DNA of 64,000 bases from NCBI GenBank assembly GCA_964583685.1, contig CAZOVJ010000001.1, forward strand, positions 327,632-391,631. Reading direction: 5' to 3'. Every line of letters starts with the position of its first letter. Position 1 is the stretch's first letter. Made by a program: the position numbers. This stretch comes from an uncultured Gammaproteobacteria bacterium. GTDB lineage: Bacteria; Patescibacteriota; Microgenomatia; UBA8517. Positions 27,001 through 33,000 of this stretch are shown here, in pieces.

Positions 27001-30000
27001 GGCAAAAAAGGAAAAGTTAGATTCCTCAAACATTGGTTTATAATAACCAGCTTTTTTAATTACTGATTTGTTCCACAAAAATCCATTAGCACCCAAGGGG
27101 TAAGCTTGTCCTTTTGGGATTTCATATTCTATATAACCTTTTTTCTTTGTTTGCTTTAACCTAGCAGCAATACAGCGAGAAAAAGGGTCTGCAATATGCG
27201 CTGCCATACTATATCTATTAAAAATATTGTCATTCTTTTTATTAAAGTAAAATGATTCAACACCAAAAAGAGAAGGGTCAACCACTAATGGTTTCACCAT
27301 TTTTATTAACCAATCTTTTTTGGCAATTTCATTGTCTGAGTCCATTAAAGCAATTATCTTCCCCCTAGCTTCCTGAATTCCCAGAGACTTACCAGATTCC
27401 TGGTCCACTGCTGGATTGTCAATAATTATTGCTCTATATTTCTTTGCGATCTGACGTGTTCTATCTTTCGACCCACCATCAACTACAAAAATTTCATATC
27501 TAGATCGGGGATAATTCTGGTTTCTTATACTTTTGAGGCATGATTCCAAATGTTTCTGAGCATTAAAAGTTGGGATAATAAAAGATACAAAGGGAAGCTC
27601 TCGGTTTCTAGATTTTTTTTGCATGATTATTAATTCAGTCCAATAATATCAAAAAAACCCAACCTTATAAAGTTGGTCTATCTCTCTCGGGTTTACACCA
27701 AAACAGCCCGTACCCTTCCTGAACACGGAGACTTGGAGTTTTTTTTACACGGCTATGTCAATATAATAAAGGCTAATACTTAGGAGAAAATAAAATCGAG
27801 ACTACAACAGCGGAAACAGGGAGGAATAATTTTATTGGTTAAAATCAAATTTTGGAAATATTTAGTCCGATCGGAACTCCACATAGTCTCAATGGTTTGA
27901 TTATCTCTTAAATGGCCAATCTTCCATGATAAACATCCTGTAGTAATTTTTCCATTATCATAAAGAGCAATTGTGCTAAAAGGAGTGGTACAAGATGATG
28001 ATTTTGAAGGCATGGCCCCTTGATAATAAGCAGTCAGGTTATTAATATCAGGTTTGATTGAAAGATTAGTCTGATAATTTCTACTCTTTTGCTTCACAGC
28101 CTTAAGTTGCTCAGTTAAAATTTTTACCTCCTGACTGGTAAAGTATTTATTTTGGGGAATTGGTACCCCAAAAGCATCTTCCCCTATACCAGTTTTTTGA
28201 TAGTAATTAAGTATAGCTTTATTAGCTGCTGGCGTTTTATAAACAAAATGCTGCAGGTTCCATTCATCCACTTCTAATTTTTCTATAAAATCATAAATTT
28301 TGGTCAATTTATAAAAATTATCTCTCCGAATCACGGTATTAATTTTCATATTAATTGGTTTGCCCGTTTTCTTCCTCTCTTCACTCAAAGCCGTTACCCC
28401 CGACATAAGACGATCAAAGCTTCCTTTGACTCCTCTGCCTAAATCGTGCTCTCGATCAACATCGGAATCTAAGGATAAGGAGATAAAATCTAATCCTGAT
28501 CTGGCAATATCCTTGGCAAATTTTTCTAAAAAATAACCATTGGTGGTCATAGAGGTAAAGATCTTTTCCTTGGACATTAGTTTGATTATCTTGATCATTT
28601 CCGGATTAAGTAAGGGTTCGCCTCCACTAAAATAGACAAATGGTTTATATTTCTTTAATTCCGGCATAATTTTTTTAACATTGCGTAAGGACAAATTGGA
28701 ATTTTTAAGATGTTGTCTTCGATATTGAGCATTAACACACATCGGACAATTTAAATTACAAACGTTGGTCACATAGATTTTAATCAACCTGGGAAATGGA
28801 GTAATTTTCCTCCTTAAAATTGCATCTGATAGGAGGTTGAAAGTTGTTTGGGGATAATCTAAAGCTAATTTAATTTTTTTAGCCAGTGGAATAATATTCA
28901 TAATTTGATAACAACTTTATTTTATTAAAGTATACCCCCATGAAAACGTTTCCTTTTTATTTTAACTACTCTTGTACAATACCAATAACTAATGGGAAAG
29001 CCCAAAATCGAAGATTCTTCCCAATTATCTTTCTCAATTTTTTAAGCATTCTCAGTTCTTTGCAAAAATTTTTGAATGATAAATAGCGAATGATACTAAA
29101 AGATATTTACTGAGCGCAAAAAGGGTTTCTAGGCCGTATTTAATTGAGCGCCTAAAATTTATTGACGAAGCATCAGGGAAATAACGAACTGGAACCGGCA
29201 TCTCTCCAACTCTGTAGTTCTGATGAATTGCCGAAATCAAAATTTCTTGGTCAAAAACAAAATCATCTGAAAATTTATGGAAGGGTAGCTTTTTAAACAC
29301 ATTTTTGTGAAATGCTCGAAAGCCAGTATGATATTCTGAAAGATTTTGGCCAAGAATAATATTTTCCAGAACTGTTAAGAAACGATTGGCAAAATATTTA
29401 TAAGCCGGCATTCCGCCTTCAAGTACTTCTTTTCTGGTCCTTATTCGAGAGCCAAGCATGATATCAAAACGCCCATCAATTATCGGTTTAACAATTTCCC
29501 CCGTTAAGCGGCTGTCATATTGATAATCAGGGTGAATCATAACCACTATATCAGCTCCCCCATTGAGGGCCATTGTGTAACAAGTCTTCTGGTTACCACC
29601 ATAGCCTCTGTTTTGGGGATGAACAATTGTTTCAATACCTAATTTCTTAGCCTTCTTGACTGTTTTATCATGGCTACCATCATCAACCAAAATTATCTTA
29701 TCAACCACCCCCGGAGTAATATCTTTATAGGTCTTTTGCAAAGTCCTTTCCGCATTATAGGCGGGCATCACGACAACTACATTGGCTGTCCCTTTTCTTT
29801 TTGACATCTAAGAAAACTCTAAGGAGATTATATGCTACAATCACTGTAATTTGAAGGGGTTAAAGCACGACGAAAAAATGCGCAAATTATTCCGCATTCT
29901 AAATCCTATTGTAGCCAAAAACTAACAATTGGTAAAATAGTGCAACAATAGTCCCTTTATGAATATCTTACTGGTCAGACCATATAATAAAGAATCTCTA

Positions 30001-33000
30001 ACAGTTGTACCCCCTCTTGGTCTAGGATATTTAGCAACTTCCTTAAGAAAAAATGGTTATAAAGTAAAAATACTAGATTGTGTTAAAGAAAAAATCAAAC
30101 CCGAAGATTTTGTTCCAATATTAAGAAAGGGAAAGCCTGACGTATTAGGACTAACGGTATACTCATCCGATTTGGTTATCACAAAAAAGTATTTGGGGGA
30201 GGTTAAAAAATTAAATAAGAACATCACTACTGTCATAGGCGGCCCTCACCCTTCAGCATTACCTAAAGAATGTTTTGATTTTTGTCAGGAATTGTTAGAT
30301 TTTGCATTCGTTGGTGAGGCAGAATTAGGTTTGCCGCTCTTGGTGGAAAAACTTAAAAAAGCAAAAAAAATACGGGCCAATAGTTTAAAAAATATTCCTG
30401 GTTTAGTCTGGAGACATAACGATAAAATTAAAATAAATAAGCCTAAATTTCCACTGGATTTAGATAACCTTGGTTTTCCTTCTTGGGACTTGATTAAACC
30501 CGAAACATATCCTCATGCTCCAATCGGAGGATTCGCTCGCAGTTTTCCAGTTGGCTATATTCTAACTTCGCGGAGTTGTCCTTTCCAGTGCACTTTTTGC
30601 GCTGCCAGGGCTGTTCATGGGTCCACTTTCCGCAGAAGAAGCTTAAGGGAAATAATGAAAGAAATTAAATACCTAATTAATACAAGGGGGATAAAGGAGC
30701 TACATATTCTTGATGACAATTTCACCTTAAGCCAAAACTTTGTCAAGGAATTCTGCCAAGCAATAATACAAAAAAAGTTTAATTTTTCTTGGAATTGTTC
30801 TAACGGTATTCGTCTAGACCGGATTGACGAAGAAACCGCGTCGCTCATGAAAAAGGCTGGGTGTTATTCGGTTGCAGTCGGAGTCGAATCTGGTTCTGAC
30901 CGCATATTAAAGCATATGAAAAAAAATCTAACTAAAAAAGAAATAAAAAAGCAAATTCGTTTAATCAGTGAGGCAGGCATAGAAGTGACAGGATTGTTTA
31001 TTCTTGGCTATCCAGCAGAGACTAAAAAAACTATCCTAAAGACAATTTCCTTTGCTAAATCATTAAATCTAACCAGGGCCTCTTTTACCACTTTTGTTCC
31101 TCTACCAGGAAGCGAAATGTGGGAATATTTACAAAAAGAAAGGAGACTGAACCCTTCTGATTTAAACACGCTTTCATATTATCGAACTGACATAAATTAT
31201 ATGAAGAATGTTTCCCAAAAGGATTTTCGATTGCTTCAGAAGAAAGCTTTTATCGAATTTTACCTTCGACCAAGAATAATCTTAACCTTAATCAGAGAAG
31301 TCAGCTCACCAAAACACCTTTTTTCCATCTTGAAAAGGGTAGTTTACTATCTGAGACTTTGGCTTATTCCGAAGTTTCTCTTTAATAATTCTCTAGTGGT
31401 ATCTTCATAATTTTCTTCTTACTTCTTCTGTAATGTCTTTTAACTTTTGATTTTTGGAATCATCCCAAGAAATGCCATAATCGGAAAGAGTAATAAAAGA
31501 AACTAGAAAAAAACTAAAGCTAGCAATAAACTCAAAAGAAAATTTCTTCTCATTAATTCTCAGAAAATTCTTTAACAATGCCCATGTTTTTGATCTCGGA
31601 AAGAGTTAAATTCCTGACAGTTGCTGACTTGATATCCAGCCTGGTAGGAGAACCCGGCACGCTAAATAAAATATCCTTGATCTTGGTTCCTCCCGGGTCA
31701 AGAATAACTGAATGATTCTTATATATACCAAAGTTTCCTATCGGTTCTTGATATGTTGCCCTTCCTTCATCTGTAACCAATGTTACTTGAATATTAGCGA
31801 AAGGGCCACCCATTTCAAATATTATTTCTAACTGAGAAGGACTTTCCATAAATTCGAAAGGGTTGCTAGCCCAATTCAAAGCAGCAATTGGGTCTATCTG
31901 GCTAAACTGTGAACTAACAACCTCTATTTCACTAATAGCTGGCGAGTCATCAGATGCAGTCGCGGTAATGTCGAAACTCAAAAATCGAGCATCAGATGGT
32001 TCAAAATTTTCAATAACGATTTCACTGTTATTTCTTAACAAGCCGGAGTTCTGTTCCAATACCGTTTCCCAACTATACCCATCTCTCGAAAGGGCAATTG
32101 AATAAGATGTGGGCGATAATAAATGTTGCCAATTAACCCAAATTAGTCTATTTACGTTTTCTATCATTCCTAAATCAATCCTTAATTCTTCATGCTTGTT
32201 ATCATGCCACCAAATTCGGTGACCTTGCCAAACGGTATCCATATCCTTATCTACAACATTTCTTAACTCCCGATATCTCCATTCAGAAAGACTTTCTACT
32301 TTAACATCCTTGTAATATCTTTCCCGGTCCAACAAATAAGACACCAGTTTTCCCCTTTCAGCAATCTCTGCTTTATCATTCTCTGGCTGATCTTGGTTAG
32401 GAAACAAACTCGATATTTTGTTGTCATCCGGAACAACTTTTGCCTTGAAAGTCAAAAGCATAGGGGTTAAGGAGCATATTTCCCCAATATCCCCCTGGGC
32501 TGTTTCCAAGGAACCATTCGTTAAAAGGTCTCTTGTTTCTGACGTTGTTTGGATCAAGCCATTCTTACCGTAATAAAATGTATATAAAGCGCCTACTCTT
32601 TTTTCATCTTTTGCTAAGGCAGAAATTAATTCGTCATAATTCGTATACATTTCAAAATCATAACGGTCAATTTTATATCTCCAGGCAATAGCGGTTGTTT
32701 CAGGCATTGATGAAACAGAAAAGGCATTCCTGAAATAATCTTGGGCATCTTTGTTGACATCAAAATAGAGAATATCTCCATTGTGAATTTCGGGTAAATA
32801 TTCCTTAAGCTGTTTATAAAAATTTGCTACAGGAATACTTCTGGTTTGCAACAAAAAGTTCTGATAGGAAAACGAGCTTACAATATTCAAAAATCCCCAA
32901 ACAATGATAATGCCACTACCAAATCTGCCCAATAAATCTTTTTTTTCGCGAAAGAATAGATAAAGCAAGGCCAGAATACCTACTAACGAAAAAAAGGTAT

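What the first reader, a model, noticed from the sequence alone, without database searches (positions are those of the whole stretch)
29959..31410. Second cobalamin radical SAM paralog divergently transcribed from a DPM1-like polyprenyl-phosphate sugar synthase
Both B12 rSAM paralogs share the same domain order and motif spacing (CPFQCTFC versus CPYMCSFC) and are clearly duplicated. This copy shares a 151-bp bidirectional promoter region with the GT2 that makes lipid-linked sugar. That is suggestive of modification at the lipid-linked monosaccharide stage. Two B12 radical enzymes plus one SPASM rSAM in one glycan locus is unusual.
Basis: partly seen in the sequence, partly recalled or inferred. 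Interest (0 to 1): 0.6.

Follow-up and report, generated by a model that had tools for sequence, protein, structure and literature searches.

The report
B12 radical SAM glycan-tailoring enzyme
The gene is a real but uncharacterised vitamin-B12-type radical SAM enzyme sitting in a huge cell-surface sugar island of a tiny uncultivated (CPR/Microgenomates) bacterium, and its relatives in many other phyla are fused in operons to the enzymes that load a sugar on a lipid carrier and hand it to the cell surface, so it most likely modifies that lipid-linked sugar.

Summary
ORF 29959..31410 (483 aa) has an N-terminal B12-binding domain, a radical SAM barrel and the CPFQCTFC motif. It lies 151 bp from a divergent 251-aa GT2 whose best matches are polyprenyl-phosphate sugar synthases. 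A colinear paralog (CPYMCSFC) lies at 42706..44067.

Three points need correcting:
- The paralogs are old. They share 37% identity, and each has 71-81% orthologs elsewhere.
- The divergent GT2 pairing is not conserved. It recurs only on one short metagenome contig that is 98-100% identical to the window. In the orthologous loci examined (72-81% identity) the gene is tandem with the other paralog, or next to NifS/NifU with or without ferredoxin and reductase genes. In one case it is about 17 kb from the GT2 ortholog.
- Several B12 rSAMs per glycan locus is common in this family (23 of 30 long loci).

The lipid-linked-sugar idea gets independent support. In 51 non-redundant loci of 40-50% relatives, a small GT2 of this kind is the immediate neighbour in 15, usually with overlapping or nearly abutting genes. 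YfhO or PMT_2 GT-C transferases, class I methyltransferases and a PRK07233 flavoprotein also recur.

No curated family threshold is met, so BchE, HpnJ, PhpK, GenK-type and AprD4 are all excluded as assignments. The chemistry is unresolved: methylation or rearrangement. I file it as a new member of a known enzyme class with a plausible new substrate class.

The parts
29959..31410 (+). Target: B12-binding-domain radical SAM protein, 483 aa. Soluble, with no predicted TM segment and an amphipathic basic C-terminal helix at 452-469.
   Evidence: The AF2 model has pLDDT 90.6. The radical SAM cysteines are C207/C211/C214. The SxL-like (S70-D71-L72), GG (G94-G95) and GEAE (119-122) motifs of the Rossmann domain are conserved.
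29808..29958 (.). 151-bp divergent intergenic spacer between the GT2 and the target.
   Evidence: One sigma-70-like site for the minus-strand GT2 (29855..29827, 10 of 12 matches) and none above threshold for the plus strand. No Rfam family, so no cobalamin riboswitch. No flanking repeats suggesting a mobile insertion.
29052..29807 (-). Small GT2 (251 aa, no TM segment) resembling polyprenyl-phosphate sugar synthases of the DPM1/PpgS/AglJ type. It is a core gene of Microgenomates.
   Evidence: In the DPMS alignment the DAD motif reads HPD and the Q is kept. The best 120 database hits listed are all about 70% identical or more, and the named ones are Daviesbacteria, Woesebacteria and Microgenomates.
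42706..44067 (+). Paralog A: B12-binding radical SAM protein, 453 aa, CPYMCSFC motif.
   Evidence: It is 37% identical to the target. Its orthologs (71-73%) lie immediately upstream of target orthologs in L004/L005/L091. It falls outside the 51-member clade that holds the target.
40911..42709 (+). SufC-like ATPase (40911..41636) and SufB/D-like protein (41615..42709), immediately upstream of paralog A.
   Evidence: sufC scores 202 bits, just under its 212.8 cutoff. The SUFBD core domain has E 1e-42.
44064..44768 (+). FNR-like FAD/NAD(P)H flavin reductase overlapping the stop codon of paralog A. It is a likely electron source for the radical SAM enzymes.
   Evidence: A 45%-identical homolog, together with a ferredoxin, lies directly upstream of the target ortholog in L001.
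35193..39298 (.). Conserved module: PMT_2 GT-C (35193..37289, -), PRK07233-type FAD oxidoreductase (37273..38625, +) and class I methyltransferase (38612..39298, -).
   Evidence: It is syntenic at 52-67% identity with the genes directly upstream of the tandem rSAM pair in L004/L005, and with the GT2 module in L170.
31553..35167 (.). F5/8 type C domain protein (31553..34219, -) and class I methyltransferase (34286..35167, +), lying between the target and the PMT_2 gene.
   Evidence: The F5/8C ortholog (55%) follows the GT2 ortholog in L170 and L171.
20375..28901 (-). Genes downstream of the GT2 on the minus strand: radical SAM protein with a sub-threshold SPASM domain (27780..28901), GT2 (26659..27624), methyltransferase (25857..26588), F5/8C protein (23812..25845), 1031-aa AftD-like protein (20766..23861) and a 132-aa four-TM ORF (20375..20773).
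   Evidence: The same order occurs on the 98-100% identical metagenome contig L173. The 'AftD (weak)' label comes from the precomputed Pfam hits of the orthologs in L001/L003.

Best explanation
The gene encodes a cytoplasmic, probably cobalamin-dependent radical SAM tailoring enzyme. It serves a multi-component transmembrane glycosylation pathway of a Microgenomates (CPR) bacterium.

Proposed pathway:
1. A small DPM1/PpgS-like GT2 loads a monosaccharide onto polyprenyl phosphate at the inner face of the membrane.
2. The rSAM enzyme modifies that lipid-linked sugar at an unactivated carbon. It is reduced by the FNR-like reductase (with ferredoxin in related loci), and its clusters are supplied by the Suf or Nif genes encoded in the island. 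The most likely chemistry is a methyl transfer via methylcobalamin, as in most class B enzymes. A radical rearrangement is the alternative.
3. The modified lipid-sugar is flipped across the membrane.
4. The PMT_2, YfhO or AftD-like GT-C enzymes of the island transfer it to a cell-surface acceptor.

Shown: the domain architecture, motifs and fold; the old paralogy; the glycan-island context; and the statistically enriched, often gene-overlapping pairing of relatives with small GT2, GT-C, methyltransferase and PRK07233 flavoprotein genes.

Inferred: cobalamin binding, the substrate, the stage of action, and methylation as the chemistry.
For: Architecture and fold:
- B12-binding domain, rSAM domain and CX3CX2C motif.
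- AF2 model with pLDDT 90.6. Foldseek top hits are AprD4, MgmA, TsrM, OxsB, CysS and TokK, with TM 0.63-0.72.
- The family profile aligns the N-terminal domain to the cobalamin domains of TsrM (3-374), OxsB (19-345), TokK (59-255) and CysS (45-257). It does not align to the degenerate N-domain of AprD4, which does not bind cobalamin (AprD4 status from PMC12931638).

Context in the window:
- All 64 kb is a glycan island with at least six PMT_2 GT-C genes, YfhO, about ten GT2 genes and methyltransferases.
- The gene is embedded in the conserved Microgenomates module PMT_2 / GT2 / F5/8C.

Context of relatives:
- In 51 non-redundant loci with relatives scoring at least 340 bits, a small GT2 (260 aa or less) is the immediate neighbour in 15, against 2.6 expected. 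In 12 of these it is on the same strand with a gap of 10 bp or less.
- A PRK07233 flavoprotein is adjacent in 12 (1.4 expected), YfhO in 4 (0.3 expected) and a class I methyltransferase in 11 (4.1 expected).
- Database gene calls show 4-bp overlaps for GT2-rSAM in L087 and L089 and for rSAM-YfhO in L088.
- Those small GT2s have ArnC, PgfS, PpgS, AglJ and Dol-P-hexose transferase as best NCBIfam hits.
- In a neighbour-joining tree the GT2-coupled clade is the nearest large sister group of the target clade.

Electron and Fe-S supply:
- SufC, SufBD and an FNR-like reductase lie around paralog A.
- NifS and NifU lie next to the target orthologs in L001 and L003; L001 also has ferredoxin and an FNR-like reductase.

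Precedents from the literature:
- GT-A / flippase / GT-C systems using C55-P-sugar, with YfhO or PMT_2 as the GT-C component (PMC8035078).
- The glycosyltransferase HpnI followed by HpnK and the B12 rSAM HpnJ, which acts on the lipid-bound glucosamine of bacteriohopanetetrol (PMC13459092, PMC9204698).
- The sugar C-methylases GenK and MoeK5 (PMC9204698).
Against: - No biochemical or expression data exist for any member of this family.
- The specific adjacency to the GT2 in the window is not conserved among orthologs.
- The GT2 occurs in many Microgenomates that lack the rSAM, so it needs no rSAM partner.
- Neighbour enrichment comes largely from one clade, so the loci are not independent. ORFs were called mechanically.
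- The GT2 fold search ranks soluble glucosyl-3-phosphoglycerate synthase alongside DPMS, ArnC and GtrB, and its DxD motif reads HPD.
- No GtrA-type flippase was recognised.
- The HMM scores do not separate methylases from non-methylases.
- The neighbour-joining tree has no support values.
- Cobalamin binding is inferred only.
Confidence: 0.4

Rival explanations
1. Same pathway and substrate class, but non-methylating radical chemistry on the sugar. Options are ring contraction to a cyclitol-like unit as proposed for HpnJ, dehydration or deoxygenation as in AprD4, or epimerisation. Cobalamin would then act as an electron sink or be absent.
For: HpnJ is tied for top NCBIfam hit: 159.6 bits against 160.2 for Sden_1168. 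BchE is top for paralog A. AprD4, a sugar diol-dehydratase, is the best PDB hit both by sequence for the single protein and by fold. Class I SAM methyltransferases already sit next to many family members, so methylation needs could be covered elsewhere.
Against: Most characterised class B enzymes are methylases (PMC9204698, PMC12931638). The N-terminal domain aligns to true cobalamin domains and not to the AprD4 N-domain. An aromatic residue (Y68, F in the family consensus) aligns with the lower-axial position of TsrM R69. That would fit the hydrophobic lower face reported for radical methylases (PMC12931638), but the alignment in this loop is uncertain by about two residues.
Confidence: 0.3
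2. A glycan-tailoring rSAM that acts at another stage than the polyprenyl-P-monosaccharide. Candidates are a soluble nucleotide sugar before transfer, or an oligosaccharide or polymer.
For: The island and orthologous loci carry nucleotide-sugar enzymes: DegT aminotransferases, 4,6-dehydratase/epimerases, acetyl- and formyltransferases, and WbqC. GenK, GenD1 and AprD4 act on soluble pseudo-oligosaccharides (PMC9204698). In the closest orthologs the neighbours are Fe-S and electron-supply genes, not a GT2.
Against: The recurrent gene-overlapping order small GT2 - rSAM - YfhO/PMT_2 in the sister clade places the rSAM between the synthase and the transferase. No nucleotidyltransferase is a recurrent neighbour.
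Confidence: 0.2
3. It modifies the lipid rather than the sugar, for example by methylating or cyclising the polyprenyl carrier or a membrane lipid, as the B12-type lipid rSAMs do (GrsA/B, Gmm, HpnP/R, the ladderane enzyme).
For: The ladderane lipid model scores 140 bits and HpnJ/HpnR also hit. A phytoene-desaturase/HpnE-like PRK07233 flavoprotein is a frequent gene-overlapping partner, especially in DPANN archaea. The protein has an amphipathic basic C-terminal helix. Lipid rSAMs with B12-type domains are known (PMC13459092).
Against: All scores are far below the family cutoffs. The partners GT2, YfhO, PMT_2 and carbamoyltransferase point to sugars. CPR and DPANN organisms generally have little lipid biosynthesis of their own (general knowledge, not tested here).
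Confidence: 0.07
4. It is a BchE-type anaerobic Mg-protoporphyrin cyclase, as automatic annotations of homologs state, or a peptide- or protein-modifying rSAM of the MgmA or ApyD type.
For: JGI names several homologs 'anaerobic magnesium-protoporphyrin IX monomethyl ester cyclase'. MgmA is the best PDB hit for the family profile at 132.8 bits. ApyD scores 152 bits.
Against: BchE scores 151.9 bits against a cutoff of 481, MgmA 114.5 against 360 and ApyD 152.5 against 750. None of the 62 relatives gives a match strong enough to reach a curated cutoff (best E-value 1.5e-66 for Sden_1168). The window and the related loci contain no tetrapyrrole, MCR or precursor-peptide genes.
Confidence: 0.03

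Closest known systems
HpnI / HpnK / HpnJ step of hopanoid side-chain biosynthesis (HpnJ, TIGR03471)
   Same: A glycosyltransferase puts a hexosamine on a lipid, and a B12-binding-domain radical SAM enzyme then remodels that lipid-bound sugar (PMC13459092, PMC9204698). HpnJ is tied for best NCBIfam hit at 159.6 bits, aligned over residues 38-461. That HpnI belongs to GT2 is from my own knowledge, not from the papers read.
   Different: The score is far below the 577.6 cutoff. No hopanoid genes are nearby. The carrier here would be polyprenyl phosphate and the product would go to GT-C transferases. HpnJ is thought to contract a ring, not to methylate.
Sugar C-methylating class B rSAMs: GenK, GenD1, MoeK5, Fms7
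   Same: Cobalamin-dependent rSAM enzymes that methylate unactivated sugar carbons (PMC9204698). From my own knowledge, MoeK5 acts on a lipid-phosphoglycerate-linked sugar. The domain order is the same.
   Different: The KedN5/GenK-type model scores only 57 bits against a cutoff of 700. Those enzymes belong to antibiotic pathways of actinomycetes, not to cell-envelope glycosylation.
Multi-component transmembrane glycosylation systems (CsbB/GtrB-type GT-A, GtrA-type flippase, YfhO or PMT_2 GT-C)
   Same: The window and related loci pair a small GT2 of the polyprenyl-P-sugar synthase type with YfhO or PMT_2 GT-C genes, as in the teichoic acid and O-antigen glycosylation systems (PMC8035078).
   Different: As far as I know, and in the literature I could search, none of the described systems contains a radical SAM enzyme between the synthase and the transferase. 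No GtrA-family flippase was recognised here.
AprD4 (PDB 6fd2) and MgmA/QCMT (PDB 9ccb), the closest solved structures
   Same: Same two-domain fold. Foldseek gives E 1.8e-25 with TM 0.72, and E 3.5e-25 with TM 0.65. AprD4 acts on a sugar and MgmA is a Csp3 methylase.
   Different: Identity is 20-21%. AprD4 does not bind cobalamin and its N-domain does not align to this family. MgmA methylates a protein glutamine. The NCBIfam scores of 96 and 114 bits are far below the cutoffs of 500 and 360.
Sden_1168 / PhpK P-methyltransferases and BchE
   Same: They belong to the same broad BchE-like supergroup of class B enzymes. Sden_1168 is the top model for the target (160 bits) and for the family (best E 1.5e-66).
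   Different: All scores are two- to four-fold below the curated cutoffs. There are no phosphonate or chlorophyll genes in the context.

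Membership tests
Class B (B12-binding domain) radical SAM enzymes, N-terminal Rossmann type | CX3CX2C motif binding the radical SAM [4Fe-4S] cluster in a TIM-barrel-like domain | tested here: met
   C207-x3-C211-x2-C214 is invariant in 62 relatives. PF04055 scores 94.4 bits.
Class B (B12-binding domain) radical SAM enzymes, N-terminal Rossmann type | N-terminal Rossmann-type cobalamin-binding domain | tested here: met
   PF02310 scores 74.3 bits against a cutoff of 32.1. The model shows a five-stranded beta/alpha domain. The family profile aligns this domain to those of TsrM, OxsB, TokK and CysS. 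Fold hits have TM 0.63-0.72.
Class B (B12-binding domain) radical SAM enzymes, N-terminal Rossmann type | Actual binding and use of cobalamin | not testable with these tools
   AprD4 shows that the fold alone is not proof (PMC12931638). Purified protein is needed.
BchE (TIGR02026) | Score at or above the curated equivalog cutoff (481.35 bits), with bacteriochlorophyll genes nearby | tested here: not met
   151.9 bits for the target and 182.3 for paralog A. No tetrapyrrole genes in 64 kb.
HpnJ (TIGR03471) | Score at or above 577.6 bits, with hpn/shc genes nearby | tested here: not met
   159.6 bits. No hopanoid genes in the window.
GenK/KedN5-type and TsrM-type C-methyltransferases (NF033712, TIGR04428) | Score at or above the curated cutoffs (700 and 500 bits) | tested here: not met
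   57.4 and 71.8 bits.
AprD4 diol-dehydratase (NF033070) | Score at or above 500 bits, with a degenerate N-domain that does not bind cobalamin | tested here: not met
   96.3 bits. Only the rSAM half aligns. The N-domain alignment scores -3.8 bits.
Polyprenyl-phosphate sugar synthases (DPM1, GtrB, ArnC, PpgS, AglJ) - applied to the neighbouring GT2 29052..29807 | GT-A fold closest to DPMS, GtrB or ArnC, with a DxD...Q metal and donor motif | tested here: inconclusive
   The top NCBIfam hits are AglJ (80 bits), PpgS (75) and Dol-P-hexose transferase (53), all below their cutoffs. The only PDB sequence hit is DPMS 5mlz, E 4.6e-6, where DAD reads HPD and the Q is kept. Foldseek finds DPMS at TM 0.71 and ArnC at 0.70, but soluble GpgS ranks equally by E-value.
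Polyprenyl-phosphate sugar synthases (DPM1, GtrB, ArnC, PpgS, AglJ) - applied to the neighbouring GT2 29052..29807 | Genomic partnership with GT-C transferases that consume polyprenyl-P-sugars | tested here: met
   Orthologs lie immediately downstream of one PMT_2 gene, and a second PMT_2 gene follows after the F5/8C gene, in L170, L171 and L172. The window holds at least six PMT_2 genes plus YfhO.
Multi-component transmembrane glycosylation system | GT-A synthase plus GT-C transferase plus GtrA-type flippase | tested here: inconclusive
   The GT-A and GT-C components are present. No GtrA Pfam hit was found. Only a 132-aa four-TM ORF (20375..20773) without family assignment is a candidate flippase.
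SPASM/twitch radical SAM - applied to 27780..28901 | C-terminal SPASM domain at or above the Pfam gathering score | tested here: not met
   PF13186 scores 18.3 bits against 21.5, E 0.003. The C-terminal cysteines are C303, C322, C361, C364 and C365, which give only a partial motif.

The most novel reading that the evidence does not exclude
A large, phylum-spanning and so far undescribed subfamily of cobalamin-type radical SAM enzymes forms a fourth component of GT-A / flippase / GT-C glycosylation systems. Members are seen in CPR, Nitrospirota, anammox Planctomycetota, Omnitrophota, Elusimicrobiota and DPANN archaea. The enzyme would carry out radical C-methylation or ring remodelling on a polyprenyl-phosphate-linked monosaccharide before it is flipped. 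This would give uncultivated, cobalamin-scavenging microbes surface sugars with no known counterpart.
Probability: 0.3. Interest if true: 0.7.

Novelty: new member of a known kind. Interest (0 to 1): 0.45.

Why it matters
If the proposed role is right, radical SAM/B12 chemistry would be added to lipid-carrier-linked sugar modification. The known examples of that step (my own knowledge, not checked here) are deformylation by ArnD and epimerisation by DprE1/E2.

It would also give a first functional handle on a very large uncharacterised protein family. A whole-library search found 11,081 cluster representatives at E 1e-30 or better.

It would imply that ultra-small CPR bacteria spend scavenged cobalamin on decorating their surface. 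That bears on how these episymbionts recognise hosts.

In practice, the compact operons of small GT2 - rSAM - methyltransferase or YfhO in L087, L089, L088 and L108 are better targets for heterologous reconstitution than the window gene itself.

Tried and rejected
- **Recent duplication.** Rejected. The paralogs share 37% identity, while each has 71-81% orthologs. The tree puts paralog A outside the 51-member clade that holds the target.
- **Conserved divergent GT2-rSAM promoter.** Rejected. The same layout was found only on the 98-100% identical contig L173.
- **Mobile-element insertion of the target.** No flanking repeats beyond chance matches and no GC anomaly.
- **Cobalamin riboswitch or other RNA in the spacer.** No Rfam hit anywhere in the window.
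- **Identifying the source genome.** The protein is not on record in the encoding-contig index. No hit of 65% identity or more was found among GTDB species representatives. The taxon was inferred instead from the GT2 orthologs.
- **Recurring unknown neighbour family.** Clustering 127 unassigned neighbours gave only small groups of five or fewer.
- **Literature.** Four full-text searches for B12 rSAM together with polyprenyl, O-antigen, Patescibacteria or Microgenomates glycosylation found nothing specific.
- **Phylogeny with characterised enzymes (GenK, Fom3, HpnJ and others).** Could not be built because their sequences are not retrievable with these tools. NCBIfam model scores and PDB profile scores were used as a proxy.
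- **Lower-axial residue inference.** TokK W76 aligns to about S70 and TsrM R69 to about Y68. This is too uncertain to use as evidence.

Full report
**1. The observation**

The ORF at 29959..31410 (+) starts with ATG and encodes 483 aa. Pfam finds a B12-binding domain at residues 12-127 (74.3 bits, cutoff 32.1). It also finds a Radical_SAM domain at 202-366 (94.4 bits). The motif CPFQCTFC supplies C207/C211/C214.

The paralog is 42706..44067 (+), 453 aa. It has the same two domains and CPYMCSFC, and is colinear over 465 residues at 37% identity, E 2e-101.

The upstream gene 29052..29807 (-) is a 251-aa GT2, and the spacer is exactly 151 bp. The consensus scan finds one sigma-70-like site for the GT2 strand and none above threshold for the target strand. 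There is no Rfam match anywhere in the window, so no cobalamin riboswitch. So the raw observation is confirmed.

The third radical SAM gene (27780..28901) has only a sub-threshold SPASM match, 18.3 against 21.5 bits.

**2. What surrounds it**

The whole 64-kb window is a single glycan island. It holds at least six PMT_2 GT-C genes, a YfhO gene and a 1031-aa protein whose orthologs carry a weak AftD label. It also holds about ten GT2 genes, three GT4 genes, two Wzx-like flippases and many class I methyltransferases. Sugar aminotransferase/dehydratase genes and a carbamoyltransferase complete it.

The GT2 next to the target has very many orthologs. All of the best 120 listed are about 70% identical or more. 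The named ones are Daviesbacteria, Woesebacteria and Microgenomates. The organism is therefore a CPR bacterium of the Microgenomates group.

In those genomes the GT2 sits in a tight co-directional module: PMT_2 - GT2 - F5/8-type-C protein - PMT_2. A methyltransferase lies close upstream, and in L170 a PRK07233-type flavoprotein as well (L170, L171, L172). In the window the same genes are present at 35193..39298, 31553..34219 and 29052..29807. The target is an opposite-strand gene lying inside this module.

**3. The neighbouring GT2**

Its best NCBIfam hits are AglJ, PpgS and dolichyl-phosphate hexose transferase, all below their cutoffs. Its only PDB sequence hit is the Dol-P-Man synthase of P. 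furiosus. In that alignment the DAD motif reads HPD and the glutamine is kept.

The AF2 model (pLDDT 84.7) matches DPMS (TM 0.71), ArnC (0.70) and GtrB (0.67). Soluble glucosyl-3-phosphoglycerate synthase ranks equally by E-value. It has no TM segment.

Its conserved position among GT-C genes that need polyprenyl-P-sugar donors adds to this. Taken together, 'DPM1-like' is reasonable but not proven.

**4. The rSAM family**

About 18 database clusters are orthologs at 65-81% identity. Identity then drops to about 50% or less, into a very large family. A whole-library search counts 11,081 cluster representatives at E 1e-30 or better. Relatives occur in Nitrospirota, Omnitrophota, Elusimicrobiota, Planctomycetota including Scalindua, Auribacterota, Saccharibacteria, and Aenigm- and Woesearchaeota.

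No curated NCBIfam model is reached:

| Model | Target score (bits) | Cutoff (bits) |
|---|---|---|
| Sden_1168 | 160 | 575 |
| HpnJ | 160 | 578 |
| ApyD | 152 | 750 |
| BchE | 152 | 481 |
| PhpK | 151 | 600 |
| GenK/KedN5 type | 57 | 700 |
| AprD4 | 96 | 500 |

None of 62 relatives gives a match strong enough to reach a cutoff either. The best E-value in the family is 1.5e-66, for Sden_1168. The automatic 'BchE' names on homologs are therefore over-annotation.

**5. Structure**

The AF2 model is confident (pLDDT 90.6). Foldseek ranks AprD4, MgmA, TsrM, OxsB, CysS and TokK first, with TM 0.63-0.72.

The family profile aligns the N-terminal domain to the cobalamin domains of TsrM, OxsB, TokK and CysS. 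It does not align to the N-domain of AprD4, which is reported not to bind cobalamin (PMC12931638). The SxL-like, GG and GE(A/G)E motifs of the Rossmann domain are conserved. This favours a true cobalamin enzyme, but it is inference.

**6. Paralogy**

The two window genes are old paralogs. Orthologs of paralog A (71-73%) lie immediately upstream of target orthologs (72-76%) in L004, L005/L006/L092 and L091. Directly before them come the methyltransferase and, where the contig extends far enough, the flavoprotein and PMT_2 genes. These are syntenic with window 35193..39298.

In a neighbour-joining tree, paralog A falls outside the 51-member clade that contains the target.

In the closest orthologs (80-81%; L001, L003) the gene lies next to NifS and NifU. 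L001 also has an HTH regulator, an FNR-like reductase and a ferredoxin there. In L003/L170 it is about 17 kb from the GT2 ortholog on the same contig.

The divergent GT2 arrangement recurs only in L173, a short metagenome contig whose genes are 98-100% identical to the window. It is therefore not independent evidence. The promoter-sharing argument therefore fails as evidence.

**7. Independent support for the lipid-linked-sugar idea**

I called ORFs in 169 loci and classified neighbours by similarity to the window proteins. Counts for the 51 non-redundant loci whose anchor scores at least 340 bits are below.

| Immediate neighbour | Loci observed | Expected by chance |
|---|---|---|
| Small GT2 (260 aa or less) | 15 | 2.6 |
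| PRK07233 flavoprotein | 12 | 1.4 |
| Class I methyltransferase | 11 | 4.1 |
| YfhO | 4 | 0.3 |

The binomial probability is 2e-8 for the small GT2 and 1e-8 for the flavoprotein. In 12 of the 15 GT2 cases the genes are on the same strand with a gap of 10 bp or less. The loci are phylogenetically related, so these probabilities overstate the case.

Database gene calls confirm 4-bp overlaps of GT2-rSAM (L087, L089) and of rSAM-YfhO (L088). These small GT2s have ArnC, PgfS, PpgS, AglJ and Dol-P-hexose transferase as best hits. In the tree, the clade with this coupling is the nearest large sister of the target clade.

The order synthase - rSAM - GT-C is what one expects if the rSAM acts on the polyprenyl-P-sugar. 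That substrate lies between the two known steps of multi-component transmembrane glycosylation systems (PMC8035078).

The closest mechanistic precedent is the hopanoid side chain. There the glycosyltransferase HpnI puts GlcNAc on bacteriohopanetetrol, HpnK deacetylates it, and the B12-type rSAM HpnJ is proposed to remodel the lipid-bound sugar (PMC13459092, PMC9204698). GenK and MoeK5 are precedents for sugar C-methylation (PMC9204698).

**8. Supporting cast**

Paralog A is flanked by SufC, SufB/D and an FNR-like reductase. Ortholog loci carry NifS/NifU, and L001 also ferredoxin and an FNR-like reductase. The islands thus bring their own Fe-S assembly genes and low-potential electron supply. 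That fits enzymes which must reduce both a [4Fe-4S] cluster and cobalamin.

The target has no TM segment. It ends in an amphipathic, basic helix (residues 452-469, hydrophobic moment 0.56, net charge +4), which could sit on a membrane surface. This is a weak hint only.

**9. 'Unusual' number of rSAMs**

Within this family several B12 rSAM genes per locus is the rule. Of 30 loci with at least 12 kb of sequence, 23 have two to six, and seven also have a non-B12 rSAM like 27780..28901.

**10. Verdict**

The finding is a real gene of a known enzyme class in an uncharacterised subfamily. The best-supported role is radical tailoring of a lipid-carrier-linked sugar in a GT-A/GT-C surface glycosylation pathway. 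The chemistry is probably C-methylation.

My confidence is about 0.4 for the full statement and about 0.75 for 'glycan-tailoring rSAM of this island'. The chemistry and the exact substrate remain open. I found no paper describing such a system.

I rate it a new member of a known kind, with moderate interest. The broader pattern across phyla is more interesting than the window gene itself.

Noticed in passing
window 40911..44768; L001 7136..9912; L003 7842..9436: Fe-S assembly genes (SufC plus SufB/D here; NifS plus NifU in related loci) sit inside the glycan islands next to the B12 rSAM genes. An FNR-like reductase is present here and in L001, which also has a ferredoxin.
   Followed up: partly
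window 39364..40914: A 516-aa ORF with no Pfam or NCBIfam hit and at least seven hydrophobic segments heads the SufC-SufBD-rSAM-FNR gene string. It may be an unrecognised polytopic glycosylation or transport protein.
   Followed up: partly
window 20375..20773: A 132-aa ORF with four hydrophobic segments and no family hit, conserved in L173. It has the size and topology of a GtrA-type lipid-sugar flippase, which is otherwise missing from the island.
   Followed up: partly
window 37273..38625; L016, L018, L019, L020, L011, L022: The amine-oxidase-like flavoprotein meets the curated NCBIfam model NF005560 ('PRK07233 hypothetical protein': 420 bits, cutoff 252). Homologs overlap B12 rSAM genes by 4 bp in DPANN archaea. 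The function of this conserved pair is unknown.
   Followed up: partly
window 1..64000: The entire 64-kb window is one glycosylation island, on a 485-kb contig of a small-genome CPR bacterium. It holds at least six PMT_2 GT-C genes, YfhO, an AftD-like protein, about ten GT2 genes, three GT4 genes, two Wzx-like genes and at least six methyltransferases.
   Followed up: partly
window 18298..20007; L012 and L096 (positions as): A carbamoyltransferase (NodU/CmcH type) lies in the island and recurs within two to three genes of family members in two other phyla. This hints at O-carbamoylated sugars in the same glycans.
   Followed up: no
L017, L100, L014, L093: Some loci carry four to six B12 rSAM paralogs within about 13-20 kb, among them a Woesearchaeota genome contig and several metagenome contigs.
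   Followed up: partly
P0283 (2096 aa), P0356 (2633 aa), P0368 (2331 aa): Giant proteins with three to six separate stretches matching the target, apparently fused multi-rSAM enzymes.
   Followed up: no
window 29822..29849: An AAGGAG Shine-Dalgarno-like sequence followed by a five-codon mini-ORF (MLQSL*) lies on the plus strand of the 151-bp spacer. It is probably chance.
   Followed up: no
window 31353..31378: A terminator-like hairpin with a T-rich tail lies inside the last 60 nt of the target ORF. It overlaps the low-confidence C-terminal tail (residues 474-483, pLDDT below 50).
   Followed up: no
window 53845..55359: A single 504-aa ORF fuses a GT2 domain to a class I SAM methyltransferase domain.
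   Followed up: no
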